DNA from: the human T2T-CHM13v2.0 reference genome, Homo sapiens
Direction: 5' to 3' (one strand)
DNA length: 64,000 bases
Assembly: GCF_009914755.1 (NCBI RefSeq)
Contig: NC_060925.1
Made by a program: the position numbers and the translations under genes. The notes beneath the pieces were generated by a model. The model saw only the letters and a program-made list of their open reading frames with translations. It ran no database searches and had not been told where the DNA came from. This document shows, piece by piece, positions 4,881 through 29,356 of the stretch; within the stretch, counting starts at the first letter, position 1; every line of letters begins with the position of its first letter.

Positions 4881-7629
4881 TGAGGTGTTATTTCTGTCAT
4901 AGTGTTAAGCTAGTTGCTTTGTAGACCCAATTATATATTGCTTTATAAGGTGTACGAGCTTTGTAATTACATGTGCTTTTATGGTAGCAAGTACCATCCA
5001 TATTTAGAACTCCTTTGAACATTTATTATAGAGACTATCTGGTGTTAATGAATTCCCTTAGCATTTCTCTGTCTGGGAAAAACTATTTCTCCTTCATTTA
5101 TGAAGCTTAAATTGGCAGAGTATGAAACTTTGACAGGCAGTTTTTTTTTTCTTTTAGGTGGCTAAAAATAGGCCCCAGTTTCTTCTGACTTGTAAGATTT
5201 CCGTTGAAAAGTTTGCTGTTAGTCTGATGGGATTTCCTTTATAGATAATCTGGCCCTTTTCTTCAGCTGCCTTTAAGATTTTTTCTTTCACATTTATCTT
5301 GGGAAGTCTGATGACTGTATGCTTTTCACTGGTTATCTTGTATAGTATCTTGCAGAAGTTGTCCAAATTTCTTGTATCTGAACATCAATCTCTCTTGAAA
5401 GGTTAGGAAAATTCTTTCCTGAATTATTCCTTCAAATATGTTTTCCAGGTTGCTTACTTTTCTTCTTCTCTCTCAGGAATGCCAATAAGTCATAGGTTTG
5501 ATCGCTTTACATAACCCCATAATTCTCAAAAGCTTTGTTCATTTTTAAAAATTCATTTTTCTTTACTTTTGTCTGACTAGGTGAATTTGAAAGACCAACC
5601 TTCAAGCTCTGAAATTCATTCTTCTGCTTGTCTAGTCTATTATTAAAGCTTTCAATGTATTTTGAAATTCCTTTAGTGAATTTTTCAATTATAGAAGTTC
5701 TATTTGTATTTTTCTTAATATAGTTTTCTTGTCTTTCATATTCTGTATTGTTTTTCTGATTTCTTTGCATTGGACTTCAACTTTTTCTTGGATCTCATTG
5801 AGTTCCCTTGCAATCCGTATTTGGAATTCTTATCTGTCATTTCCGACATTTCAGTCTGGCTAGGATCCATTGCTAGAAACTAGTGTGATCCTTTGGAAGT
5901 GTGTAAATACTCTGGGTACACTGGAGTTATTGCACTGATTCTTTCTCATCCGAGGAAGCTGTTGCTTCTTAGTTTTGAATTTGGTATTGTTTGGATGAGG
6001 ATTTTTAATGTTTTTATTCTTTTTTTCCCTTGATGGTATGACTGTGGTGTATGTTGTGTATGATTGTTTGGCTTCATTTCTGGGTGCTTTCAGGGAGCCC
6101 TAGCTTTGTATGGGTTTCTTGGTTGTGGATAGCTTCTGAGCAGTAGCTTTCTCAGATGCTGCTTGTTGTGGTGATGTATTGGAAGTAAAAGCTAACACAC
6201 TAACCCTTGTTGGGGGCTGAGGGTACGGAATTCTCAGGAAACTTATCTCATGGACTAGCACTAAGCCCTTTGGTAGCAGGGTTTTTGAATTCAGTGGTCC
6301 AGTTTAGGATGCAGTCCAGTAGATGGTGCTTAAGAGTCAGGGCTGTTACGTAGGCTGGTGTCCAGTGGAAAAACCTGCCCTGACAGGATGGTGGGAAAGA
6401 GATCATGTCGGGGTGTGCTGAGGTCTCAGGGGAAGGGGCAGAGGTGCACTAGCTCCTCCTCCTGAGTAGGCAAGAATGTGATCCGCTTCCCTATCATGCC
6501 CTGTCACAGAGCTCACAACCTTCATTTTATAAAGACTTTGTCCTTTGGTTCCTGGCTGTGGTGCAGCTGAAGTCTGTGGATATGGCACTCTGACAGCTAC
6601 CACTAAAATGGGGTTTAGGGCAAAGCCTCTTCCCCGAGTCCAGGGCAGGCAACTCCATGGTCTGTCCTCCATTGTCAGGGCACTGCAGCTCTGTATAGGG
6701 AGGGAGAGTTGGGCCCGTCCTTCCTGAAAGCCCAAGCAGCACAGGCTCACTTTCAGCCTGGGTGGTGCCACCATGAATAACGTGCATAATGTTCTCTCCT
6801 GGTGCATACTCACTGGGTCCTGGAGAAAAGAACCACTGCTATGTCTGCAGCCATATACGGGGTAGGGGAGAGATGATCCCTGCTTTTCCTGCTTTTCCAC
6901 TCCTGTTCCTGGGTGTCAATGCTGCCCTCTTCTGCGATTGGTGCCATGCCAGTGTTTTCTTTGTCCCTAGGAGGGCTTTGGGACAGTGAGCAAACAATTG
7001 TTCTGATAAACACAATTTAACCCGCGACCCTTGGCTCGCTCAGGTCGTGGGGTTGGGCCGCCTTTGCGCTTTTCCTTTGGATCTGCCCTTCTTCTGGGTT
7101 TGTTCTCTCGAGCTAGGGGAAGGCCTGGGTCCCCTCTCTTTGGCTCCTCTTGCCGTATCAGAAACCTCACACTCCTTCCTTTTCCAGAGAAGCTTCAGAG
7201 TGCTTTGTTGGGTTTGCTGGAACTCGGCAGGGCGCAAGTATGTGGGGATGCGCGCTGTGAGTCTCTGTTTCCTCCGCTGTGACGGCTCTTCCCGCTCCTG
7301 TAGGAAAAGGCAATGCCCCTTTTGTCTTGTCTATGTGGGACTCCAAAGGGTCCAGACGAGACAGAAAGGGGGCGAATCCTCTCAGAGTGGGCAGGGGAGG
7401 AGATACAATGTGGGAATGGGGCGGTAGAGGGGTGGGATTTCATGAAATTTCCTGATTTAAGGCGATCATGAAGTAGGCCTCTTTGGGAGGTTGGCCCTCC
7501 AGTCGCTGGTAAGGGTAACAGCCCACCAGTCTCTGGTGAGGTCCAGTCGCGTCCCCCGACTGCATTTAGAGCCAAAAGCAGAACGAGGCCGGCGCTGCGG
7601 CCTGGCGTCCAGTGACCCAGCTGTCTGCA

Positions 7630-7699
7630 TATTCCCCAGGGTGCAAGCACTTGGACTTCAGGTGTGAAGGCAATGCGGTCACCACCGCAGTAAGAAAAG
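7630..7699 (-). pseudogene. Highly decayed tRNA-Val(CAC)-like relic
   Basis: Reverse complement cttttcttactgcggtggtgaccgcattgccttcacacctgaagtcc aligns loosely to the Val-CAC 5' half; paralog at 24810. Confidence 0.5.
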
Positions 7700-7732
7700 C
7701 AACTAGGGAAAATGGCACCTTCTTCTCCCAAC

Positions 7733-7789
7733 TTTTTTTTGAGACTCTCGCTCTGTCGTCTAGGCTGGAGTGCAGTGGTGCGATCTTGG
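7733..7789 (-). mobile_element. Short Alu 3' fragment at a deletion junction
   Basis: ttttttttgagactctcgctctgtcgtctaggctggagtgcagtggtgcgatcttgg; no TSD seen. Confidence 0.85.
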
Positions 7790-7863
7790 ATTTGGAAACT
7801 ATAATAGAAACGGCTGATCTAAGATTTTCATGGTTATGTTTTGCCGCGCAGGTTCCGCGTGTG

Positions 7864-7936
7864 GTTTCCGTAGTGTAGTGGTTATCATGTTCGCCTCACA
7901 CGCGAAAGGTCCCCGGTTCGAAACTGGATGGAAACA
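7864..7936 (+). tRNA. tRNA-Val(CAC) variant
   Basis: GTTTCCGTAGTGTAGTGGTTATCATGTTCGCCTCACACGCGAAAGGTCCCCGGTTCGAAACTGGATGGAAACA. Four substitutions versus major Val-CAC, A and B boxes intact, T5 terminator at 7941. Confidence 0.93.
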
Positions 7937-9226
7937 TAGGTTTTTGTTTTTTTTGTTTTTTTTTGTTAGCCCTTAAATTTAGTGAGTTTACTCGAGGTTG
8001 GAAAACAGAAAAATAGTTGAACCTGTGACTACATTTTAGACCTCATCAATCTATACAGATTGTCGACCAGGCTACAATTTCCACTGGTCTGCCAGGAAGA
8101 GGACGTCACAGCAGGCCTGCTTAATATTAACTTTGGTTCCAGCAATTCCTTAAGGTTCTCTTCATTCTCTTTATCGCCTGAATTTTCACAGGCAGACACC
8201 GAAAGTGGATGACATGTTAGCGCATTTCCTAAGGGTCCAGCTTGGCTTCGCTTTACTCTGATACAGTTGCAGATCTGGCTGATTTGCGAGACAACAAAAA
8301 CAAAATGTTTTTTAAAAACGTTCCAAATCTGCATCTGGAACTCATGGAGTCAATATTCCGAAATCACACGAATTATGTACATACATTTGCATGCATACCC
8401 CTTCCCCAAATAATCCTCAGAAAACCGGTAAGCGTCCAAACTACTCTCCGGAGGCTTAGGTAATCAACAATTTAATAAATACAATTGCTAATGTATGGTG
8501 TACAGATCCTGTATTGCCCACCCTTCTCTATTGCTTTGTCCCCGCGCGCCCTCTGTTTTGCCTAAATGGGTTCCAGGCCATAGCCACCGACTCTCGCTTT
8601 GCCTTCTGGCCTCTCGGCAGTGCGCTTCAGCACCATTGCGCCAGGTGACGCTGCTGAGAACAGCTGAGTGGCCGGCACTAGTGCAGCTGGAAGCCAAGGC
8701 CCAGAATTCTCAGGAATCTGCACTTTACCCAGGCGAAAAGCCCAAGGGCTCTCCCCACAGCTTCCCAACATCCCTCTACAGAGTTTTTAAATATTAGACT
8801 TATTAACCTGTAGAGATGGAGAGAATCAAAGAAATCACAAGGTATCTCTGAGGGAAAAAGAAGAGCACCAGCAGTAAATCACTTAAGAGTATTGAACCAG
8901 CAAGCCAGGGATAGGAGAATGGAATGGAAACTGACAGGATGACTGCAGAGGATGGTACTGAGGGTGGATGCGAACCACTACTTACTATTAATATATTGAG
9001 CCAAGCACACTAATGGGGGCATAACCAAAATACTTAATAGGGCACTCTTTTACCCACCATGTGTTTTACAATATAGTTGCTAAAGGATGTATCACCCTAC
9101 TGGTTCTAGAAGCTTCTGGAGCCAAGGAGCCAGAGCATGAGAGCATAAAAATCCTGTCAATTGAAGCCTTGGGCTCTACACTGCTAAGCCTGGCCCAGAG
9201 GCTGGATTGCAAATGCAGGTGCTAGT

Positions 9227-9602
9227 GTAATGGAATGGATGTTTGTGTTCCCTTCATATTATATATTGAAGCCTTAACCCCCAATGTGAAGGTATTTTGG
9301 AGGTAGGGCCTTTGGGAGGTAATCAGGTTTAGATGAGGTCATGACCATGGGATCTCCATGATGAGATCAGTGTCATTATAAGAAACAGAAGAAAGACGAA
9401 AGTGCTCTCTTTCTCTCCACCATGCGAGGACAGAAGGAGAATGTAGCAGTCTGCAAGCCAGGGAGAGAGCCCTCACCAAGGAGGTGAATCCGCTGGCAGT
9501 TTGATCTTGGACTTCTCAGCCTCTCAAACTGTGAGAAAGAAATTCCTCGTGTTTAAGCCACCCAGTCTGTGGTATTTTGTTATGGAAGCCTGAGTTAAGA
9601 CA
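9227..9602 (+). mobile_element. MaLR solo LTR (MLT1A/MST-like)
   Basis: TG...CA ends; gggcctttgggaggtaatcaggtttagatgaggtc and gatcttggacttctcagcctc...aagccacccagtctgtggtattttgtta motifs. Confidence 0.85.
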
Positions 9603-9761
9603 GCTGGTTCACTGGGGAATCCACTGGTGTGAACCTGTGAAAAGTTTGTGACATGTGAAGTAGTTTGCTGCTCCTGGATTTGAGTATTGGCAAGAGCTGT
9701 TAGAATGATGAGCATAGAGTGAAGAAGGGTACAGAGAATATGGTATTAATCATTGTACTGA

Positions 9762-10212
<451 letters not shown>

Positions 10213-11579
10213 AGGAGTCCAGTTTTTTGTCTGCTTATGTTAATGGATGCAAGAGCCGATAGATGGAAAAGTGTGGTAATAAAGTGGCAGTAAGCTTGTG
10301 GAGTATCCAATAAACTTAAACGCTATTTTTTTTGAATTGAACTGAAATTGTTGTGTTATGAAAATGAGAGAGTTTATCCAAAGAAAGATCTGGCTTGGCA
10401 AATAGGATAGATGGTGGTGAGGATAAGTGTGCTAGGCAGGGCTAGAAACAGGTTTTAGTGATCATTGAAACACCCAGGGCAGTGCACTACTCTTTGGGAG
10501 ATGCTGTGCTTGAGTCTGATCATTGGGTTTTGAGGTAGAGGGTGGTACATATTGCTGACAGGGAACTCACCGGTGTGTTGAGTTTTAGCATCTGTGACTC
10601 TGAGATGCATATGAGGCCTTTGTAAATTTAGAAGTTGAGAGTAGAAAGTACAGGTTTGTATTTTAGAAGGAGATTTGGGAATAAATGTAGCTCTGGTTGA
10701 TATAGATAATATGTTAAGGTTTGTTGGCCAGAGCTGGTGTGTGTCTTGGGTGTTGGGCAAAGAACAGAGAACAGTCAAAGCTCTGTGAGGTCAATGTGAA
10801 GGGTGATTTCCTTGTTGGGCTCAAGTTTATGACCCAGCCTGGACCTAGCTTGGCTTCTCAGCTAGAGAAGAAGCATGATTCCATGTCACAACTCCTGTCT
10901 TTGAAAAAGTCATAATGACTCACAGACCCAACATGTGGGGCAAACTCTCTGAATTTTTCTCTTCAGTTTAATCTCTCCAGGGAAAATTGAGAAAAGAAAT
11001 CTCTCTATTTGAACTTCATCAAAAGACTAATATGTTAATATTTTGACCATCAATATTTCCTTAAACTAGTCTACTCCTTACATAGCTAATACATCAAAGC
11101 ATATTAACTTAGGAAATTGGATTCTCTCTAACAATGAAATATTGACTGCAGGCATTATTAATCTTTTTATATCACATTTCCTTTAAATGCTTTATACATC
11201 TTCAAGCAGACAAATAACAGTATTATGGTTACAAGACCGATCATTACTCTTTTGCCAAAAAAACCAGCGACAAAAGACTAACTCAGTGGACCAACCTTTG
11301 TTTCTTCATTATCTCTACCTTGATTCTGTCCTTTTATTTCCTCTTTCCTCTAATTCTAATTCTGCTTCTGCTTCTTATTTCCTCCCTGGATTAGAACTTT
11401 ACTTACCTAAGCTACCAGTTAGGTTACCTTCTCAGAACCACTAAGGCAGCAGTTTGACGTTGACAATTGAAGATTTAGGATTACAAAAAAGAAACATGAA
11501 TGAATTTGTGACGTTTTATTATAGGGGTATGTAATGCAGGTAGAAAGACCTTTTTCAGAGTTAAGAGTTTGATCCGACA

Positions 11580-11715
11580 AATGAGCTATTTTGATATTTA
11601 TAACTTTGTTTAGTAAAAGTTTCCTATAAAAACATTTGGTTTGGATGAATGAGCTATTTTGATATTTATAACTTTGTTTAGTAAAAGTTTCCTATAAAAA
11701 CATTTGGTTTGGATG
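11580..11715. repeat. Perfect 68-bp tandem duplication (2 copies)
   Basis: aatgagctattttg...ggtttggatg at 11580-11647 and 11648-11715. Confidence 0.95.
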
Positions 11716-11816
11716 TCTTTGTTAGCTTTGAGTCGACACTTGAAAAGGCCGCTTGGAAGTTTCTAAGTCTTTCTGGATACTCTTTCCGGTAATTCTCCAA
11801 GGGTTGCTGGGGAGAG

Positions 11817-11887
11817 GCACTGGTGGTTCAGTGGTAGAATTCTCGCCTCACACGCGGGAGACCCGGGTTCAATTCCCGGTCAAGGCA
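11817..11887 (+). tRNA. tRNA-Gly(CCC) body with CAC (Val) anticodon; probable pseudogene
   Basis: GCACTGGTGGTTCAGTGGTAGAATTCTCGCCTCACACGCGGGAGACCCGGGTTCAATTCCCGGTCAAGGCA. Anticodon CAC at 11849-11851, two acceptor-stem mismatches, T7 terminator downstream. Confidence 0.92.
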
Positions 11888-12523
11888 AGAGGTTTTTTTG
11901 CTCTTCACTATGGCTCTTTACCCTTCTGCCCTGCAGAATTACACTGCATAACCTAATAGTGCATTTAAGGGCTTGGCCACCACAAGGTAAACTGACAACA
12001 ACGCTGACCAAAGTAGCAGCAAAAGACATTCAGGAGACTAACCCGGGACCCACGCAGTTGTTGGACTCAACAAACCGCTAAGCAAAGTGGCAAGCACGTA
12101 GTGTTTCTGGTGAGTCACTGCAGTTTTGATATTGGTACCTGTTACTTTCATCTGTTCTCTGGGCGGATTCCTGCAAACCCAAGAACCATCAGTTTCCTGA
12201 TTCGTGTGCTGGACCTTGGGCTTACCGCTGAGCCACTACGGAGAGGAACAAGAAATGAAGCTCCCGGAAGGAGAGAAGCTGCGGGCGGGGCAATCACCTC
12301 GGAGGTCCAAGAGGCCTCAGCGGCCCAAAGAAAGGGGAGGTGTGTGCGGGAGAATCTCAATGGAGATGAGGAGAGCAGCGGTGACTGGTCCTTGCGCAGA
12401 GTGGTCCTTGCACAGAGGTAGCCAATGGACCCTCGAGGCTGTACCCCAGACACCGCGAACCGAATTTGCTAACATCTTCAGCCACCGTGGCCTCCGCGTG
12501 TTTTGTGGGCCCATCGGTGTTCA

Positions 12524-12979
<456 letters not shown>

Positions 12980-13129
12980 TTATGTAGCGGAATGGGGAGA
13001 GAGTAACGGAGAAGCGCATGAAAGAGAGAAAAGCACGAAAATCTGCAGACGTTCGAGAATAAAGCAGAGAAAATAGTATGAGTGTTTTTACATAAAAAAA
13101 TATAAGAAGTACAATGGTTGTCAGCAGGC

Positions 13130-13201
13130 TTTTTGGTCGTGTAGTGGTCAATACTTGCAGCTGTGGTTGCCGCAACCTGGGTTCTAATCTGAGTCACAGT
13201 A
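13130..13201 (+). pseudogene. Decayed tRNA-His(GTG)
   Basis: ggtcgtgtagtggtcaatacttgcagctgtggttgccgcaacctgggttctaatctgagtcacagta is colinear with His-GTG; acceptor stem destroyed. Confidence 0.8.
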
Positions 13202-13640
13202 GTGTTTTCTCTCCTGCGATTGTAGCTAAAAGACCTGTCGTTTGCTTTGCCTTTAATCCTAGCAGCCTCCAGAGAGCGGAGTAAACCGCTGGCCCGGAAG
13301 GGCGCCAGCTTCTGGAGTTTAGCCCACAGTGCGTAAACTAGGGGGCGGCCTGGCCAAAATGAAAACTCGGACATGCTCTTTGTCTCACAATGGAGCAGAA
13401 AAAATTCCCATAGGTGAAGATGCCGCCTCTCAAGGGCCCTTTGTCTGTAGCTTCCACCGATGAAATAATACGGTTATAGTCTCATCTGGTAGAGAAAACG
13501 GCTGTATCAGTGGGATTTTTTAAAAACACAAAACGAGAACGAGCTTTTAATGAGTTTACAATAAAATCTAAACTAGTTGTCATGGTCTACACCGGCTTGC
13601 CTCCATTCCCCATCCCCTAATTTTTATGAGAACAGTAAAT

Positions 13641-13749
13641 TATTACTATTACTATTATTTTTGAGATGTAGTCTTGTTCTGTCACCCAGGCTGGAGTGCC
13701 ATGGCTCAATCTCGGCTCACTGCAACGTCCCGTTTCCCGGGTTCAAGCA
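13641..13749 (-). mobile_element. 5'-truncated Alu with 15-bp TSD
   Basis: TSD atgagaacagtaaat at 13626 and 13750. Confidence 0.9.
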
Positions 13750-13764
13750 ATGAGAACAGTAAAT

Positions 13765-14770
13765 AAACTACAGTTCACATAAAGTGCACAAATCTTTAGT
13801 GCAGTTCGTTTATTTTTGATGAATGTAATCACCACCCAGCTCAAGTTATAGAAAATTGCCATCATCTGAGAAAGGCCTGTTAGAGCCCCTTTCCAGGCAA
13901 TTCCCACCCTGTGTCCTCTTAGTTAATCACTATTCTGATGTCTATTCCCATAGGTTACAATTGCCTGTTCTTAAAGTTCACATGAGTGAATGGACATATC
14001 TTTTGTATCTGGCCTTTTTTCTGCAGGTATGTTCATTATACTCATGAGATATATCCACGTAGTTTCATAGATCACTTCTCAATTTTGGTGTTATTGAATT
14101 CTTGTGATGAATATTCTTCTACAGGTCTTTTTGTGCACTTGAGATTCATGGAAGTACTTCAATTGCTGGGTCACGACCTGAGTACAAGTTTAACATTAGT
14201 ATAAATTGCCAGTCTTCTAGAATGTTTTTTCACCAGCAATGACAGTTGAAGTGGCACCAAATTCTTGTCAGCATTTGGTGTACTAACTTTTTAAAATGTA
14301 GCTATGCTCTCAGACCAAACTGGCCAACATGGCGAAACCCCGTCTCTACTGAAAATATAAAAATTAGCCAGGCATGGTGGCATGCACCTGTAGTCCCAGC
14401 TACTCAGGAGGGGGAGGTTGCAGTGACTCAAGATTGCACCAATCGCACCATTGCACTCCAGCTTGGGTGAGAGAGACCCTGTCTCAGAGAAAAAAAAAAA
14501 AGTAGTCACACACTGGTGATTGGTTAGTGGTATCTCAGTGTGGAATTAATTTGTACTTGCCTAATGAGCAATACTATGAAGCATATTTTCTTATGGCTTC
14601 CAGCATATAAGAAATTCTCCTTTGCAAAGGCCTATTCGAATATTTTGCCCGATTTTATTTGGCTTAGCTCTATATTACTGATTTATGAAAGTTCTTATAT
14701 ATTCAGGAGTTGAGTCATTTTTCAAATAAATATATTGCAAATGACTTTTCCCAGTCAATGACTTGACTGA
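13765..14770 (-). mobile_element. Ancient L1M fragment (contains the Alu at 14312)
   Basis: Decayed L1 3' region motifs (gtggtatctcagtgtggaattaatttg, ttgcaaatgacttttcccagtc). Confidence 0.65.
14312..14501 (+). mobile_element. Truncated Alu
   Basis: ggccaacatggcgaaaccccgtctctact...gcactccagcttgggtga plus A tail. Confidence 0.9.
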
Positions 14771-14781
14771 CAACTGAAAGC

Positions 14782-15394
14782 TGTCAACTGAAAAATCACA
14801 CAATTTATAAATTTAGAAAGGAGATTTTATTTTTTTATAAAGGGTTACAGCCTGCAAGTGGCCATTCTGACAGACTGGGAGGCATAGCTTCCTGCTGAAA
14901 CCCGAAAAGTAGGTTTCCAGGGAGGGGAGGGCGAATAGTGATTTACGTTGATCTGGCTGGCCACATATACATATTCAACAGGGAATAGGGGGAGCTCTGA
15001 ATATTTGTGAAGGGATCCTGCTGCATGCATGCTGAGTAAACATGCCTGTTACATGCAACCCATGTTCACTTTGGGGTGGAGACAACATTTAAATACATTA
15101 TAATTAGGCCCTATGCTTCAAAAGGTGAAGCAGGGACACAAAGGCAATCAAGTGCATAGCTTCTGTAAACTGTCCAGAACCCGCCCACGGCCAGTGGTCT
15201 CTTATCAAGAGAAAACTACTGAAATCAGTCTCTTGTCCAATCAAAGCAGTAGTTACGGCTTGTGTAGGGAGGGCTCAGTCAGTTTATGGTAATAGGTGAG
15301 CTGCAAGTGCTTCAGCATTGCTTATCTCAAGGCCAGTGCTTGTTTAGCTAGAGAAAAAAAGGAAGAAGAAAAAAAAACTGGCAATTAGAACATA
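14782..15394 (-). mobile_element. Partial ERV1 LTR (MER4D-like, 3' portion)
   Basis: Colinear with the complete copy at 28310-29207; begins tgtcaactgaaaaatc; minus-strand AATAAA at 14826-14831. Confidence 0.8.
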
Positions 15395-15512
15395 GTGCCT
15401 ACTGCCACACACATACCACCAAATCCTGCACTCCAAGCTTCTCCTTCTGCACCCTGGACTCCCAACCTCCAGTTAGACAATCCACATCTTCCCACACCTG
15501 CCTCAGGCTCCA

Positions 15513-16022
15513 TCAGGCCACTGTGCCTCCCATAGCAACCAGGCCAGGGGGGATCTTGATTCCTATTACGTTTCTGAAGAAGGTGGTCAGGGGGTGTGGA
15601 GGATGTAGGTGGGAGGGGGTGAGGTTGAGGGCAGAAGTACACTGTGGTCTTCTGTCTTCTACCTCATTGGCCCAGGTGCTGCTCTCCCTCCGGTTGTCTG
15701 CTTTCAGCCCTTCGTGGGAAATCAGGTCTGCACCCTGATCTTCCTGACTCTCATTTTGTGAGGAACCTGAACGGATGAGACGTCGCTCTTGTCCCACAGG
15801 TTCTGTCCAAAAGGTGCCCTCCTCTCTACTTGCTCGGGGGCCTGCCCACTGAGCTCTGGCACTCAGGCTGGGATGCCGCCCAGTACAGAGGCTCTGCAGC
15901 CCTGCAGGGGTCTGACTGTTCCACACCAGCAGGATACAGGCCACAGGGCATGCTGTGGTGGAAAAGCATTCAGAGGTGTGGGCTGAAGGCTTCTCTTTCC
16001 ACAGTCCCTTTGAAGATCCCAT
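15513..16022 (-). CDS. FAM231D: FAM231-family putative protein (169 aa single-exon ORF; coding status doubtful)
   Basis: MGSSKGLWKEKPSAHTSECFSTTACPV...GIKIPPGLVAMGGTVA recognised from memory as FAM231 family; ATG at 16022. The exact paralog is uncertain. Confidence 0.6.
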   Translation of the reverse strand: MGSSKGLWKEKPSAHTSECFSTTACPVACILLVWNSQTPAGLQSLCTGRHPSLSARAQWAGPRASREEGTFWTEPVGQERRLIRSGSSQNESQEDQGADLISHEGLKADNRRESSTWANEVEDRRPQCTSALNLTPSHLHPPHPLTTFFRNVIGIKIPPGLVAMGGTVA

Positions 16023-16569
16023 GGAAGTAAGCACCCCTTTGAGGAACAAGGTGGCCCAAGGCCTGGCTTCACATGCAGGCTCTTGTGTCCCAGTGGGTCC
16101 TCTCTGTGCCTGGTATAGCCGACTGCTTCACACATCTTACCCGGTTTCCTCTCCTCCACCACCCAAGATCCTCCTCGACCTCCTTGCTCAGCTGTCCTTA
16201 GGACAGCAAGATCCCCAGCCCTTGGAAAAGCCCTATCTCCACTGCTTGGGGAGGGAGTTGGGTTCAGGTCTTCTAACCACAGAAGAACAGAGAACCTGAG
16301 GCAGGAGGGAATCCCTTCCCTTGCTGGGTCTCTTGGCACAGCCCATCTAGGGGTCTGGGTCAGGGTCCAGGTATCCTCTACCCTCCTTGAGGACCTGAGG
16401 TTTCAGGTCCCCGGGGTTTGTCAACGTAGAGTCTTTCCCACTGTTCATCTGGGAACTGTAGGAATATCCCATGGGGCCCTCTCTTACTCATTAGAGACAC
16501 CCAGAAAGTACTCCTGCAGAAACTGGGTGCAGTGTACCAGACCACAATAATTCTAATTACAGGATGTGG

Positions 16570-17070
16570 AGGTCAGATACGTTTTGTGACTATTTTCTCT
16601 CTGTCTGTGGCTTGCTTGCCTTTTCACTTTCTTAGTGGTATCTTTTGATGAGAAGGTATGGCTAATGTTGATGAAGTCTAATTTATCATGTCTTTTATAT
16701 ATATTTTTTCAGTGTCCTACTTGTTGGTAGGCTAATCTTTACCTACAGAGTATCCTTGAAATGCTTTATATCTTTAACTTTTAAGTTTTGGTGTATAATG
16801 CACCTCAAATTACTTTTGTATGTAGTGTGAGGGAGAATAACATTGTTGGTCTCCCCCACCTCCATATGAAAGTCCATTAATTGAAATGATTTATTTTCTT
16901 CTATTGAACTGCTTTCATTGAAAGCTCATTTATTGACTGTATGGCTGTGGATCAGTTTCAGGTCTCTTAACTCAGTCTGTTTATCTATTTGTCCCTCCTG
17001 ATGCCTTGTCTGTAATAGCTTATAGTAAGCCTTGAAGTCAGATAGTACAAGTCCTTGTTCTTTTGCACAC
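16570..17070 (-). mobile_element. Ancient L1M ORF2 fragment
   Basis: Translation LVLSDFKAYYK resembles L1 GLTLPDFKTYYK; continues the L1 at 13765-14770. Confidence 0.7.
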
Positions 17071-19120: not shown

Positions 19121-19192
19121 TGCATGGTTGTCTAGTGGCTAGGATTCGGTGCTGAAAGCGCCACGGCCCGGGTTCGATTCCCGGTCAGGGAA
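19121..19192 (+). tRNA. tRNA-Glu(TTC) body with GAA (Phe) anticodon; probable pseudogene
   Basis: TGCATGGTTGTCTAGTGGCTAGGATTCGGTGCTGAAAGCGCCACGGCCCGGGTTCGATTCCCGGTCAGGGAA. Loop CTGAAAG, GAA at 19154-19156, intact B box, T4 at 19196. Confidence 0.92.
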
Positions 19193-21290: not shown

Positions 21291-21972
21291 CCCCGATTTT
21301 TTTTTAATGTAAAAACATTTATGCGATTTTTACGTGTTTATTCTTGGGCAGCTACAGGTTCTTGTGATTTTCCCTCACGTCTTCTCCAGTCCATTCTGAT
21401 ACGTGTCCCATCTTCTCTGCATCCAGCCGGTGCCCTCTGCACCGGCATCCTGGGCTGTCCCATTGTCTCGTCCTGGTCTCCCCTGCTTCTTCTCCCTCCT
21501 TCTTTTCAGGTTTTCCCTTTTGACTCCCCTGCCTCTTTCCCGCTCCCGCCCCACCAACCCCATCTACTGAAGCCGAGTTGAGTGAGGGGATAGCAAGCGG
21601 AGTAGATGATTGCCTGAAGGCGGCGCAAAAAAACAGAAAGAGCTACCTACCATGAGAGCCGTCGGGGCGTTCAGCTTCCCTTGGGCCCTACTAGGCTCAG
21701 GCTGGGGTCGCAGATCCAGGCATTTCCAGAGGCACTGGCTTCTGAAGGAGGCGAGGGTTAATGGAGGGTGAAGGCCATTCGGCCGCCCTTCTGGTTTCAG
21801 AGTCAGGCAATGCAAGCGTTTCTAACGTGCAACAACACGATTAGTCGACTCAGCCTCTCCGGTTTTCCGAAGCTTTGTAGTCTGCACAGTTGTCCTGCAG
21901 AAAGCGAATGGCAACCCCTAGAGTTTAGTGATTGCTTAATCTATGTTGAGATGAAAGCGACCAACTGAGGTT

Positions 21973-22046
21973 ATCTCCGTGGAGCAATTGGTTAGCGCGT
22001 TCGGCTGTTAACCGGAAAGTTGGTGGTTCGAGCCTACCCAGGGACG
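21973..22046 (+). tRNA. tRNA-Asn(GTT) variant, probably impaired
   Basis: ATCTCCGTGGAGCAATTGGTTAGCGCGTTCGGCTGTTAACCGGAAAGTTGGTGGTTCGAGCCTACCCAGGGACG. A1-C72 and C6-A67 mismatches; T4 follows. Confidence 0.92.
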
Positions 22047-22070
22047 TGCTTTTAAATGTTGGTTAGTTGT

Positions 22071-27557: not shown

Positions 27558-27673
27558 ATCTCTAGATCAGTTTTGACTTGTGCATCTGGCGGGCTTCGTG
27601 AGCATTGCAGACAGGTTCACCTTTTGGAGAAACCTTTGGAAGGCAAGAGGAATGAAAAGTGCTTGCTGTTGTT

Positions 27674-27746
27674 TCCGTGGTGGTCTAGTGGCTAGGATTC
27701 GGCGCTTTCACCGCCTGCAGCTCGAGTTCGATTCCTGGTCAGGGAA
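27674..27746 (+). tRNA. tRNA-Glu(TTC) variant
   Basis: TCCGTGGTGGTCTAGTGGCTAGGATTCGGCGCTTTCACCGCCTGCAGCTCGAGTTCGATTCCTGGTCAGGGAA. TTC at 27707-27709; 1-nt insertion and a G4 mismatch. Confidence 0.92.
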
Positions 27747-28309
27747 TACATGCTTTGTAAGGTCTCCAAAAGCGGGCGACCTTAGCCCTTGTTACTGGAA
27801 CTTGCGATGTGCCCCAAAGCCCACTGCAGGAGAGTTTCTGTAGTCTTGGGTGCCAGAAAACTCTGGTGAAGAAGGGGAGTTAATGGCGACCCTCTCCCTG
27901 TTTCTCATGCTCCTGACCGAAAATCTTGTTACCTACTCTTTTCTCCCTTGGGCACCCTAGCACTCCTGTTCTTTTCATATCTCCATTTCTCATACAGCAG
28001 TACTGACTTCAGAGGTCGACTAAGCAGCTTGCTCAAGGTTATACAGCCATGCATTGATCCACACCTGGGTGGGGCTCCTGCCCTATTTGCTGGGTTGCCA
28101 TTACTGACAGAATGAGATCTGCATCTGGTAATGGCTTCTTGCTGCTTTCAGAGTAACTCTCCCACAGATAACGACTATAAACTAGAAAAATTTATTTCAT
28201 ATATATATTATATAATTTGAAGGTGCTGGAAGACTGAACAAAAGCAGGCGGACATATGGAAGAATGGCAGGTAGTGAGTATCCCATTTTGCAAACTTTCA
28301 GCAGAGGGC

Positions 28310-29207
28310 TGTTAACTGAAAAACCATACAATTTGTGAGCTTACAGAGGAGAATTTATTTCTTCTAAAGGGTTACAGCATGTAAGGTGGTCATCCTGACA
28401 GGCTGGGAATCGCGGGAAGCCCAGAAGCAGGCACTTTGAGGGAGGGAGGGGCAAGACAGGAATTTAAGTTGAATGGGTGGGCCTAAAATACATATTCAAC
28501 AAGTTATAGGAGGATTTATGAATATTTGTGAAGGGGTCCTGATGCATGCTTATTGAACAAACATTCACGTAATATACAACCTTGTTCACCTTGTTATGGA
28601 TACTTAGCATTTAAATGCATTACAATTAGGCCCTATACACAAAGGTCTTTTCAGGACACAAAGGCACTCAAATGCACAGATACTGTAAAACTGACAGAAC
28701 CAGTCCATGGTCGCTGGTCTTCTCATCAGAAGAAAGTTACTGAAATCAGTCTCTTGTCAGTCAAGGCTGTAGTTATGGCTTGTGGAACAGCGGGGTTCGG
28801 TATCTGGTGAGGGGTGAGCAGCAAGTGCTTCAACACTCCCTATTCTCAAGGCCAGTGCTTGTTTAGCTGCTAGAGAAAATCCTTGTGGCAGTTAGAACAT
28901 AGTTTATTCTTTGCATATATGGGGTGTGTGAGTTAATCCTTGCCCGGAATGGTCCTAAGTCCTATTTATAATTTGGTGTCTTATTGCCATAAAGAGTCTG
29001 TTCCGTCAGTCTTATGATCTCTGTGATAACATTAATGTTGGTCAGTTTTGTCTAAATTGCAAAAGGGTGGGAATATAATGAGGCTTGTCTGGCCTCCCGT
29101 TCCTTCTTGGCCTGGGACTCAGTTTATAAGGTTTGCCTAGGGTCCCGTTGGCCAACGGGGGGTCCATTTAGTCAGTTGGGGGACTTAGGATTTTATTTTT
29201 CGTTTAT
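28310..29207 (-). mobile_element. ERV1 solo LTR (MER4D-like, about 900 bp)
   Basis: Reverse complement begins tataaacgaaaaataaaatcctaagtcccccaactgactaaatggacccc (MER4-type start) and ends ttcagttaaca. Confidence 0.8.
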
Positions 29208-29356
29208 AGAACAAACTTTGCTCCCCCTTACTTGGATTAGCTAAATTACAATACAAAACCAAACTGTCTTCCTAGATTAAAGGAACAGAGGACAAAGTTT
29301 TAGACAACCACAGCAGTTGGAACATCAAGGGGTTAGGTGGAATCTCAGAAAAGAAA

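What the first reader, a model, noticed from the sequence alone, without database searches (positions are those of the whole stretch)
11817..11887. Second anticodon switch: tRNA-Gly(CCC) body with Val anticodon CAC
Seen: Gly-CCC sequence with C35 changed to A. The resulting 14-mer tcgcctcacacgcg (11843-11856) is identical to the anticodon arm core of the Val-CAC gene 4 kb away (7891-7904), so micro gene conversion is an alternative to point mutation. Known: A35, C36 and A73 are major ValRS determinants and C35 is a GlyRS determinant, so one change could switch both decoding and identity. A3-G70 and C4-A69 mismatches argue for a dead or non-translating gene. Two switches within 8 kb suggest this cluster is a nursery for alloacceptor shifts.
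Basis: partly seen in the sequence, partly recalled or inferred. Interest (0 to 1): 0.7.

Follow-up and report, generated by a model that had tools for sequence, protein, structure and literature searches.

The report
Decaying glycine tRNA copy reading valine
This is a young duplicated copy of a glycine tRNA gene whose stem was already damaged before one base change gave it a valine anticodon, so it is most likely an ordinary decaying gene copy that is probably still transcribed.

Summary
Window 11817-11887 (+) is a 71-nt tRNA-Gly-CCC body with anticodon CAC (A35 at 11850). It differs from the canonical 1p36 Gly-CCC genes at four positions: T4C, C35A, C66T and T70G.

The 14-mer shared with the Val-CAC gene at 7864 is real but carries no information. 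The two anticodon arms already matched at 13 of those 14 bases.

CHM13 holds four close paralogs, 0.5-0.9% apart. Two are identical CAC copies (window and chr1:142.87 Mb). A third CAC copy at 148.83 Mb has four more changes. The copy at 121.03 Mb keeps CCC but shares C4, T66 and G70.

Outgroup polarisation and an ML tree place the CCC copy as sister to the three CAC copies.

The gene and its flanks vary 10-27 times more than background among the paralogs. So does the neighbouring Val-CAC gene, but three other tRNA-like elements nearby do not. This fits transcription-associated mutagenesis without purifying selection, which makes an anticodon hit unsurprising (about 0.26).

Verdict: an ordinary recent alloacceptor remolding in a pseudogenising tRNA copy. 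Low interest.

The parts
11817..11887 (+). tRNA-like gene: Gly-CCC body with anticodon CAC, 71 nt
   Evidence: ARAGORN. Rfam RF00005, 53.4 bits. 4 of 71 differences from the canonical 1p36 Gly-CCC genes.
11849..11851 (+). Anticodon CAC; A35 at 11850 is the derived base (C in the 121.03 Mb paralog and in every 1p36 copy compared: 5, 4)
   Evidence: The Gly-type arm carrying CAC occurs at exactly 3 places in CHM13.
11820..11820 (+). C4 (T in canonical copies): gives the C4.A69 mismatch and creates a competing 5' hairpin
   Evidence: Shared with the CCC paralog, so older than the switch.
11880..11884 (+). T66 (G7.U66 wobble) and G70 (A3.G70 mismatch) on the 3' strand of the acceptor stem
   Evidence: T66 is in all four paralogs; G70 is in three of the four, including the CCC copy.
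11824..11834 (+). A-box region, identical to that of the canonical Gly-CCC genes
   Evidence: Sequence identity. The box consensus and its position are recalled knowledge.
11866..11876 (+). B-box region, identical to that of the canonical Gly-CCC genes
   Evidence: Sequence identity. The box consensus is recalled knowledge.
11893..11899 (+). Run of 7 T, 6 nt past the gene: a Pol III terminator-like site
   Evidence: The paralogs keep 5 or more T.
11787..11816 (+). 5' flank substitution hotspot among the four paralogs (8 of 30 sites vary, 27 times background)
   Evidence: The derived states are almost all absent from the 1p36 copies.
7864..7936 (+). Neighbouring true Val-CAC-type gene, the proposed conversion donor; it is also a substitution hotspot

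Best explanation
This is a pseudogenising copy of tRNA-Gly-CCC carried in the recent chr1 (1q21/1p11) segmental duplications. The founder copy had already lost regular acceptor-stem pairing (T4C, C66T, T70G) before it multiplied to four copies. A single C-to-A change at position 35 then arose on the branch leading to three of the four copies, including this one and its identical twin at chr1:142.87 Mb. The locus keeps the internal promoter regions of the canonical gene and a T-run terminator. It shows a sharp local excess of substitutions in the body and near flanks. I read this as Pol III transcription-associated mutagenesis acting without purifying selection (inference), so the anticodon change is one of many hits rather than a special event. 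The predicted RNA does not favour the cloverleaf and lacks a regular acceptor helix. It is therefore unlikely to be matured and charged efficiently. If it were charged by ValRS through A35 and A73 it would read GUG as valine, with no change in decoding. Shown here: ancestry, the order of events and the hotspot. Inferred: transcription, lack of function and the mutational mechanism.
For: Ancestry: 4 of 71 differences from the canonical Gly-CCC genes. The flanks are homologous to seven 1p36 Gly-CCC loci. Paralogs: there are four close copies, 0.49-0.86% apart over 10 kb. The states are CAC/CAC/CAC/CCC, with C4 and G70 in three copies including the CCC copy, and T66 in all four. Order of events: over about 6.2 kb with four 1p36 outgroups, 9 sites (6 with unanimous outgroups, the anticodon among them) show W144+P142+P148 sharing a derived state, against 1 site for P121+P148. 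The ML tree is (P121,(P148,(W144,P142))) with UFboot 74 and 73. Lack of constraint: the CAC copy at 148.83 Mb has 4 further body changes and the CCC copy has 2 more that break pairs 1-72 and 2-71. Body versus flank variability is 7/71 against 10/60, Fisher P=0.30. Hotspot: body 7/71 (10 times background, P=7e-6), 5' flank 8/30 (27 times), against a background of 95/9672. From the tree length 0.78 changes are expected in the body and 7 are seen (P=2e-5). Three other tRNA-like elements in the same duplication show no excess, at 0.7-2.1 times background. Derived states are almost all absent from the 1p36 copies, so conversion from those copies does not explain the cluster. Thornlow et al. 2018 (PMC6130373, abstract and passages) report 7-10-fold elevated mutation at active tRNA loci, peaking in the 5' flank. 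Folding: the cloverleaf is -17.5 kcal/mol against an MFE of -24.4, whereas the canonical gene gives -25.0 against -28.3. Chance: at the observed body rate, P(at least one anticodon change) is 0.26, and 0.17 for an alloacceptor change. Literature: recent primate alloacceptor remoldings map to terminal branches and are judged to be pseudogenes (Velandia-Huerto 2016, PMC4981973, passages).
Against: Tree support for the CAC clade is only moderate (UFboot 74). Six unpolarised sites group W144 with P121, so there is some inter-paralog conversion or lineage sorting. The two copies closest to each other (the window and 142.87 Mb) have identical bodies while their lineage collected 5 changes in 60 flank bases and 0 in 71 body bases (one-sided Fisher 0.018, post hoc). 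This is compatible with weak constraint or with homogenisation. RefSeq annotates the locus as a tRNA, not a pseudogene (hub table). Small-RNA studies list fragments identical to its first 27-31 nt, so an RNA product may exist. No direct transcription, processing or charging data were available to me. No ape genomes or population data could be searched.
Confidence: 0.75

Rival explanations
1. It is a working alloacceptor-shifted tRNA. C35A removes the GlyRS determinant and creates the main eukaryotic ValRS determinants (A35 with A73). On this reading the RNA is valylated and serves as a new human-lineage Val-CAC isodecoder, or, if residually glycylated, puts Gly at GUG codons.
For: A35 and A73 are listed as the eukaryotic Val determinants, and C35/C36 as Gly determinants (PMC9976931). 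The promoter regions and terminator are intact. Two identical copies show no body change while their flanks diverged. The hotspot suggests transcription.
Against: The third and fourth acceptor pairs are A.G and C.A. The same review notes that even G.U pairs at these positions impair valylation in E. coli and that a regular acceptor helix is needed. The cloverleaf is 6.9 kcal/mol above the MFE. The damage predates the switch. The third CAC copy decayed further. Body and flank rates do not differ overall.
Confidence: 0.06
2. The base change was made by micro gene conversion or template switching from the Val-CAC gene 4 kb upstream, not by point mutation.
For: The resulting 14-mer equals the Val gene's arm. 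A donor lies in cis in all four paralogs, and no variable site falls in 7889-7924. The neighbouring Glu-type copy at 19121 looks like a loop inversion, so template switching may act in this cluster.
Against: Only one base differs between donor and recipient within the tract, so the outcome cannot be told from a point mutation. Flanking identity is only 7 and 6 bases, and the two genes share 45 of 73 aligned columns. The locus is a substitution hotspot that makes a point mutation likely.
Confidence: 0.07
3. It has a non-translational role: the locus persists as a Pol III-bound element or as a source of tRNA-derived fragments with a distinctive C4 5' end.
For: Fragments equal to the first 27-31 nt are reported in at least four human small-RNA studies under ValCAC/GlyCCC labels (PMC6935952, PMC7957983, PMC13141492, PMC7976566; passages read). 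That 31-mer exists at only 3 places in CHM13. RefSeq 'enhancer' features abut the gene (hub table).
Against: The fragment differs by one base from the very abundant Gly 5' half and rises and falls with it in those lists. It may therefore be a read error that happens to match a genomic tRNA. No constraint is seen on the body across the four copies.
Confidence: 0.1
4. It is an assembly or sequencing artefact at 11850.
For: None found.
Against: The same A35 is present in three separately assembled paralogs with distinct flanking variants.
Confidence: 0.01

Closest known systems
Recent alloacceptor anticodon shifts (tRNA remolding) in primate nuclear genomes (Rogers & Griffiths-Jones 2014, PMC3923123; Velandia-Huerto et al. 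2016, PMC4981973)
   Same: Homologs defined by their flanks carry different anticodons. The change is a single substitution at position 35, which is the commonest class for alloacceptor shifts. The event is recent and accompanied by other damage, as for the terminal-branch remoldings judged to be pseudogenes.
   Different: The comparison here is among human segmental-duplication paralogs, not across species. I could not see whether this particular Gly-to-Val case is in their lists: the main-text tables are not itemised and Additional file 2 is a PDF that I could not read.
Anticodon/isotype-model disagreement ('IPD') genes flagged by tRNAscan-SE 2.0, e.g. human tRNA-Leu-CAA-5-1 with a Met-type body (PMC8450103)
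   Same: A body of one isotype carries the anticodon of another, and annotation pipelines name it by the anticodon (hub table calls it TRNAV-CAC).
   Different: Leu-CAA-5-1 is described there as a high-scoring gene. This gene has two adjacent acceptor mismatches. I could not run tRNAscan-SE or see its GtRNAdb entry.
Transcription-associated mutagenesis at active tRNA loci (Thornlow et al. 2018, PMC6130373)
   Same: There is a sharp local excess of substitutions confined to the gene and its inner flanks, strongest in the 5' flank, mostly transitions.
   Different: At active functional tRNA genes the body is conserved while the flanks diverge. Here the body varies as much as the flanks, as expected if selection is gone. 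Their analyses excluded genes in segmental duplications (PMC6961574).
Canonical human tRNA-Gly-CCC genes at 1p36 (loci L005-L007)
   Same: 67 of 71 bases are identical, the A-box and B-box regions are identical, and the flanks are homologous.
   Different: The anticodon is CAC, pairs 3-70 and 4-69 are mismatches, and 7-66 is a wobble.

Membership tests
Functional cytosolic tRNA-Val(CAC) | Anticodon CAC with A35, and discriminator A73 | tested here: met
   The determinants are as listed in PMC9976931.
Functional cytosolic tRNA-Val(CAC) | Val-type body, related to the other Val genes | tested here: not met
   All 30 genome matches read by sequence are Gly-type, and the neighbouring Val gene is not among the 40 scored matches. 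45 of 73 aligned columns are identical to that Val gene.
Functional cytosolic tRNA-Val(CAC) | Regular 7-bp acceptor helix and a stable cloverleaf | tested here: not met
   A3.G70 and C4.A69 are mismatches. The cloverleaf is -17.5 against an MFE of -24.4 kcal/mol.
Functional cytosolic tRNA-Val(CAC) | Aminoacylation by ValRS and use in translation | not testable with these tools
   No charging or tRNA-seq data could be queried.
tRNA-Gly-CCC gene family (by descent) | Body and flanks homologous to Gly-CCC loci | tested here: met
   67 of 71 bases identical. The flanks are 83-93% identical to seven 1p36 loci.
tRNA-Gly-CCC gene family (as a working Gly tRNA) | C35 and C36, and pairs G1-C72, C2-G71 and 3-70 | tested here: not met
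   A35 replaces C35 and 3-70 is A.G. The 1-72 and 2-71 pairs are kept.
Alloacceptor anticodon shift / remolding | Homologs defined by flanks that carry anticodons of different amino acids | tested here: met
   There are four paralogs with more than 99% identical flanks, three with CAC and one with CCC.
Alloacceptor anticodon shift / remolding | The shifted gene is retained under constraint (a functional recruitment) | tested here: inconclusive
   Overall the body and flank rates are alike (P=0.30). The W144/P142 lineage shows 0/71 against 5/60 (P=0.018, post hoc), while the third CAC copy has 4 more body changes.
Actively transcribed Pol III tRNA locus (TAM signature) | Elevated divergence of the inner flanks relative to surrounding DNA | tested here: met
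   The 5' flank is 8/30 and the 3' flank 2/30, against a background of 95/9672. Three neighbouring tRNA-like elements show no excess.
Actively transcribed Pol III tRNA locus (TAM signature) | Pol III occupancy or nascent transcripts | not testable with these tools
   No ChIP or expression data could be searched. The only evidence is indirect tRF listings.

The most novel reading that the evidence does not exclude
The CAC-bearing Gly body would be a human-lineage-specific, transcribed Pol III gene kept in two identical copies. Its RNA would then be used in one of two ways. It could be a valylated extra Val-CAC isodecoder made by a single identity-switching mutation. It could also be the source of a distinctive C4 5' fragment seen in small-RNA data. 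Either would make it a live example of alloacceptor recruitment caught within the last few million years.
Probability: 0.08. Interest if true: 0.6.

Novelty: new member of a known kind. Interest (0 to 1): 0.2.

Why it matters
As it stands the finding matters little. It is one more recent anticodon change in a decaying tRNA copy, and annotation by anticodon alone (TRNAV-CAC) overstates it. Two points have some use.

First, the four young paralogs give an internal clock. It orders the events (damage first, switch later) without needing other species.

Second, the same comparison shows a 10-27-fold local substitution excess at two of the five tRNA-like elements in this duplication. That is an indirect readout of which copies are probably transcribed in the germline, in a region where short-read expression and ChIP data cannot be mapped uniquely and which earlier surveys excluded.

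If the gene were shown to be charged, it would be a rare natural case of a one-step identity switch in humans.

Tried and rejected
- **GtRNAdb-style names:** searching for Val-CAC-10 to -14 and Val-CAC-chr1 found 7 papers. The two I read concern true Val-type bodies, not this gene. One lists a Val-CAC-chr1-93 fragment with a Val-type 5' end. The other describes Val-CAC-11 with a weak T arm. I could not establish this gene's GtRNAdb name.
- **Prior description of this particular Gly-to-Val shift:** searches found none. Rogers & Griffiths-Jones do not itemise their shifts in the text held. Velandia-Huerto's event list is a PDF supplement that I could not read. bioRxiv supplements, such as the T2T tDNA table of 10.1101/2025.06.09.658696, are closed.
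- **Gene conversion from 1p36 Gly-CCC copies as the cause of the substitution cluster:** rejected, because the derived states are almost all absent from those copies.
- **The CCC copy as a back-conversion:** considered less likely, because it keeps C4, T66 and G70 within 35 nt on either side and is the sister lineage by 8 other polarised sites.
- **CpG decay as the cause of the body changes:** none of the 7 variable body sites is at a CpG, by my own inspection.
- **Not available:** population variation, ape orthologs and expression tracks are not in any tool I had.

Full report
**1. What is in the sequence**

Window 11817-11887 (+) is a 71-nt tRNA-like gene. ARAGORN reads it as tRNA-Val with anticodon cac. 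Rfam's tRNA model matches end to end at 53.4 bits and marks two non-standard pairs in the acceptor stem.

Read directly, the features are:
- C34, A35 and C36 lie at 11849-11851.
- The discriminator A73 is at 11887.
- The 3-70 and 4-69 pairs are A.G and C.A.
- The 7-66 pair is G.U.
- A run of seven T starts 6 nt past the gene.

A search of the whole assembly with the 71-mer returned only glycine-type bodies among the 30 matches I read base by base (40 were scored, from 54 candidates). The Val-CAC gene 4 kb upstream is not among the matches. Aligned to that Val gene, only 45 of 73 columns are identical.

Against the canonical Gly-CCC copies at 1p36 (L005-L007) there are four differences in 71: T4C, C35A, C66T and T70G. 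The stretches where the A and B boxes lie (positions recalled) are identical to the canonical genes.

**2. The 14-mer**

The 14-mer at 11843-11856 does equal 7891-7904. However, the unswitched Gly-CCC arm already matches the Val arm at 13 of those 14 bases, with 7 identical bases before and 6 after position 35. The identity follows automatically from the one base change. It cannot separate conversion from point mutation.

**3. Paralogs**

CHM13 has four close copies of this unit:
- W144: the window copy.
- P142: chr1:142.87 Mb.
- P121: chr1:121.03 Mb.
- P148: chr1:148.83 Mb.

There are seven older relatives at 1p36, between 15.99 and 16.67 Mb. Over 10 kb the four differ by 0.49-0.86%.

Their tRNA bodies compare as follows:
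- P142 is identical to the window gene.
- P148 has CAC plus C4G, G70A and two A-to-G changes in the D arm.
- P121 keeps CCC, shares C4, T66 and G70, and adds G71A and C72T.

The Gly-type arm with CAC occurs at exactly three places in the genome.

**4. Order of events**

I polarised about 6.2 kb with four 1p36 outgroups.
- Nine sites show W144, P142 and P148 sharing a derived state while P121 keeps the ancestral one. Six of these have unanimous outgroups, and the anticodon is one of them.
- One site groups P121 with P148.

The ML tree is (P121,(P148,(W144,P142))) with ultrafast bootstrap 74 and 73. On this tree C35A needs one step.

On any rooting, parsimony puts C4, T66 and G70 in the common ancestor of all four copies. 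The acceptor damage therefore predates the switch.

There are caveats. The bootstrap support is moderate. Six unpolarised sites group W144 with P121, so some exchange between paralogs has occurred.

With recalled substitution rates of 0.5-1.0e-9 per site per year, the four-copy ancestor dates to roughly 3.5-8 My, and the switch falls between that and about 2-4 My. This is a rough inference only.

**5. A local mutation hotspot**

Among the four copies, 127 of 9936 ungapped columns vary.

| Region | Variable sites | Fold over background | P |
|---|---|---|---|
| Background (outside both tRNA genes) | 95 of 9672 | 1 | |
| Gly/Val gene body | 7 of 71 | 10 | 7e-6 |
| Its 5' flank, 30 nt | 8 of 30 | 27 | 4e-10 |
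| Its 3' flank, 30 nt | 2 of 30 | 6.8 | 0.035 |
| Val-CAC gene at 7864, body plus 30 nt each side | 15 of 133 | 11.5 | 6e-12 |

The two densest 130-nt windows in the 10 kb are exactly these two genes. From the ML tree length, 0.78 body changes are expected and 7 are seen (P=2e-5).

As a control I aligned a further 15 kb. The three other tRNA-like elements there show 1-3 variable sites per roughly 135 nt, which is 0.7-2.1 times background and not significant. These are the Glu-type element with GAA at 19121, Asn-GTT at 21972 and Glu-TTC at 27673. The densest window elsewhere in that stretch reaches 7.

Nearly all derived states near the gene are absent from the 1p36 copies, so conversion from those copies does not explain the cluster.

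The pattern matches what Thornlow et al. 2018 describe for active tRNA loci (PMC6130373; abstract and passages). They report 7-10-fold elevated mutation, highest in the 5' flank and tied to transcription. The difference is that at functional genes the body stays conserved. Here the body and flanks vary alike (7/71 against 10/60, P=0.30).

My reading, which is an inference, is a unit that is still transcribed and no longer under selection.

On the older branch to the 1p36 copies, fixed differences are 6 of 30 in the 5' flank, 3 of 71 in the body and 249 of 4945 elsewhere. That hints the body was once protected, but the evidence is weak.

**6. Was the switch improbable?**

At the observed body rate, 0.30 changes are expected in the three anticodon positions over this small tree. 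That gives P=0.26 for at least one change. About 0.17 remains for one that changes the amino acid, since six of the nine single-base changes of CCC do so. At the background rate the figure would be 0.03. The switch is therefore no surprise once the hotspot is known.

**7. Can the RNA work?**

- For this gene the cloverleaf with the mismatches opened evaluates at -17.5 kcal/mol, against an MFE of -24.4.
- In that MFE structure C4 helps form a competing 5' hairpin and the acceptor stem is not formed.
- For the canonical gene the figures are -25.0 against -28.3, and its MFE keeps the acceptor stem.

Giege & Eriani 2023 list A73 and A35 as the eukaryotic Val determinants. They list C35, C36, G1-C72, C2-G71 and G3-C70 for Gly (PMC9976931; Table 1 and the Val and Gly passages).

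The same text notes that irregular pairs at the third and fourth acceptor positions impair valylation in E. coli, and those are the two positions broken here. It also says no identity set is known for higher-eukaryote tRNA-Gly. If the RNA were valylated it would read GUG as Val, which would leave decoding unchanged.

**8. Expression hints**

Fragments identical to the first 27-31 nt of this gene appear in several human small-RNA studies under MINTbase-style labels assigned to ValCAC and GlyCCC:
- Breast cancer tissue: PMC6935952.
- Thyroid cancer, with qPCR: PMC7957983.
- Asthma epithelium: PMC13141492.
- Gastric cancer plasma: PMC7976566.

I read only the passages around the hits. The exact 31-mer exists at just three places in CHM13: W144, P142 and P121.

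The fragment differs by one base from the very abundant Gly 5' half and changes in the same direction in those lists. Read error matched to a genomic tRNA is therefore a live alternative, and I count this as weak evidence.

**9. The 'nursery' idea**

The other switch is real. Window 19121-19192 is a Glu-TTC-type body with GAA, present in all four paralogs and with a broken acceptor stem. A further Gly-type body with a TTC anticodon lies alone on chr2. These are what decay of redundant tRNA copies produces anywhere, and I see no property of this cluster that favours identity changes beyond local mutation rate and lack of selection.

**10. Comparison with what is known**

- Alloacceptor shifts among primate tRNA genes are documented. 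Position 35 is the commonest site (Rogers & Griffiths-Jones 2014, PMC3923123; passages).
- Recent shifts map to terminal branches and are judged to be pseudogenes (Velandia-Huerto 2016, PMC4981973; passages).
- tRNAscan-SE 2.0 flags anticodon/isotype disagreement (PMC8450103).
- Genes in segmental duplications were excluded from the activity-prediction work (PMC6961574).

I found no paper describing this specific gene. The supplements that might list it were unreadable or closed.

**11. Verdict**

The best explanation is a pseudogenising, probably still transcribed Gly-CCC copy that picked up C35A after its acceptor stem was already damaged. It is a new member of a known kind and of low interest. 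The modest added value is that young paralogs expose a transcription-type mutation hotspot at two of the five tRNA-like elements here.

Noticed in passing
window 19121-19192 (+), inside a LINC01145 exon on the opposite strand: This is a Glu-TTC-type body that ARAGORN reads as Phe (gaa), and it is not in the hub gene table. The loop bases that read TTTCA in the 1p36 Glu-TTC copies read TGAAA here, which is their reverse complement. With one further change, this suggests a hairpin-loop inversion or template switch rather than four separate substitutions. It is the same in all four paralogs, and its acceptor stem is broken.
   Followed up: partly
window 7834-7966: The true Val-CAC-type gene and its near flanks are also a substitution hotspot among the four paralogs (15 of 133 sites, 11.5 times background). 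The window copy carries extra changes in the D arm, T arm and acceptor stem.
   Followed up: partly
window 21972-22047 and 27673-27747: The Asn-GTT and Glu-TTC tRNA-like elements show no substitution excess among the paralogs (1 of 136 and 3 of 135 sites). This suggests they are silent, in contrast to the two hotspot genes.
   Followed up: yes
L064 (G000:C2:203846289-203846359, minus strand): An isolated, decayed Gly-type body carries a TTC (Glu) anticodon. It is a further alloacceptor-type change outside any tRNA cluster, and it matches the 5' fragment that tRF papers label GluTTC.
   Followed up: partly
L065 (chr3:15.51 Mb), L066 (chr5:16.11 Mb), L067 (chr5:86.86 Mb): These are copies of only the 5' half of a Gly tRNA. 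Homology stops at the anticodon loop, as if tRNA halves had been inserted into the genome.
   Followed up: no
window 11786-11887, W144 and P142 lineage: Since splitting from the 148.83 Mb copy, this lineage has 5 changes in 60 flank bases but none in the 71-base body (one-sided Fisher 0.018, post hoc). Chance, homogenisation between the two copies, or weak constraint could each explain it.
   Followed up: partly
window about 29040-29280: This is the densest non-tRNA cluster of paralog differences in the 25 kb examined (7 per 130 nt). Its cause was not examined.
   Followed up: no
window 6817-16887, four-way alignment: Six sites group the window copy with the 121.03 Mb copy, against the main tree. 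This hints at exchange between paralogs or incomplete sorting.
   Followed up: no
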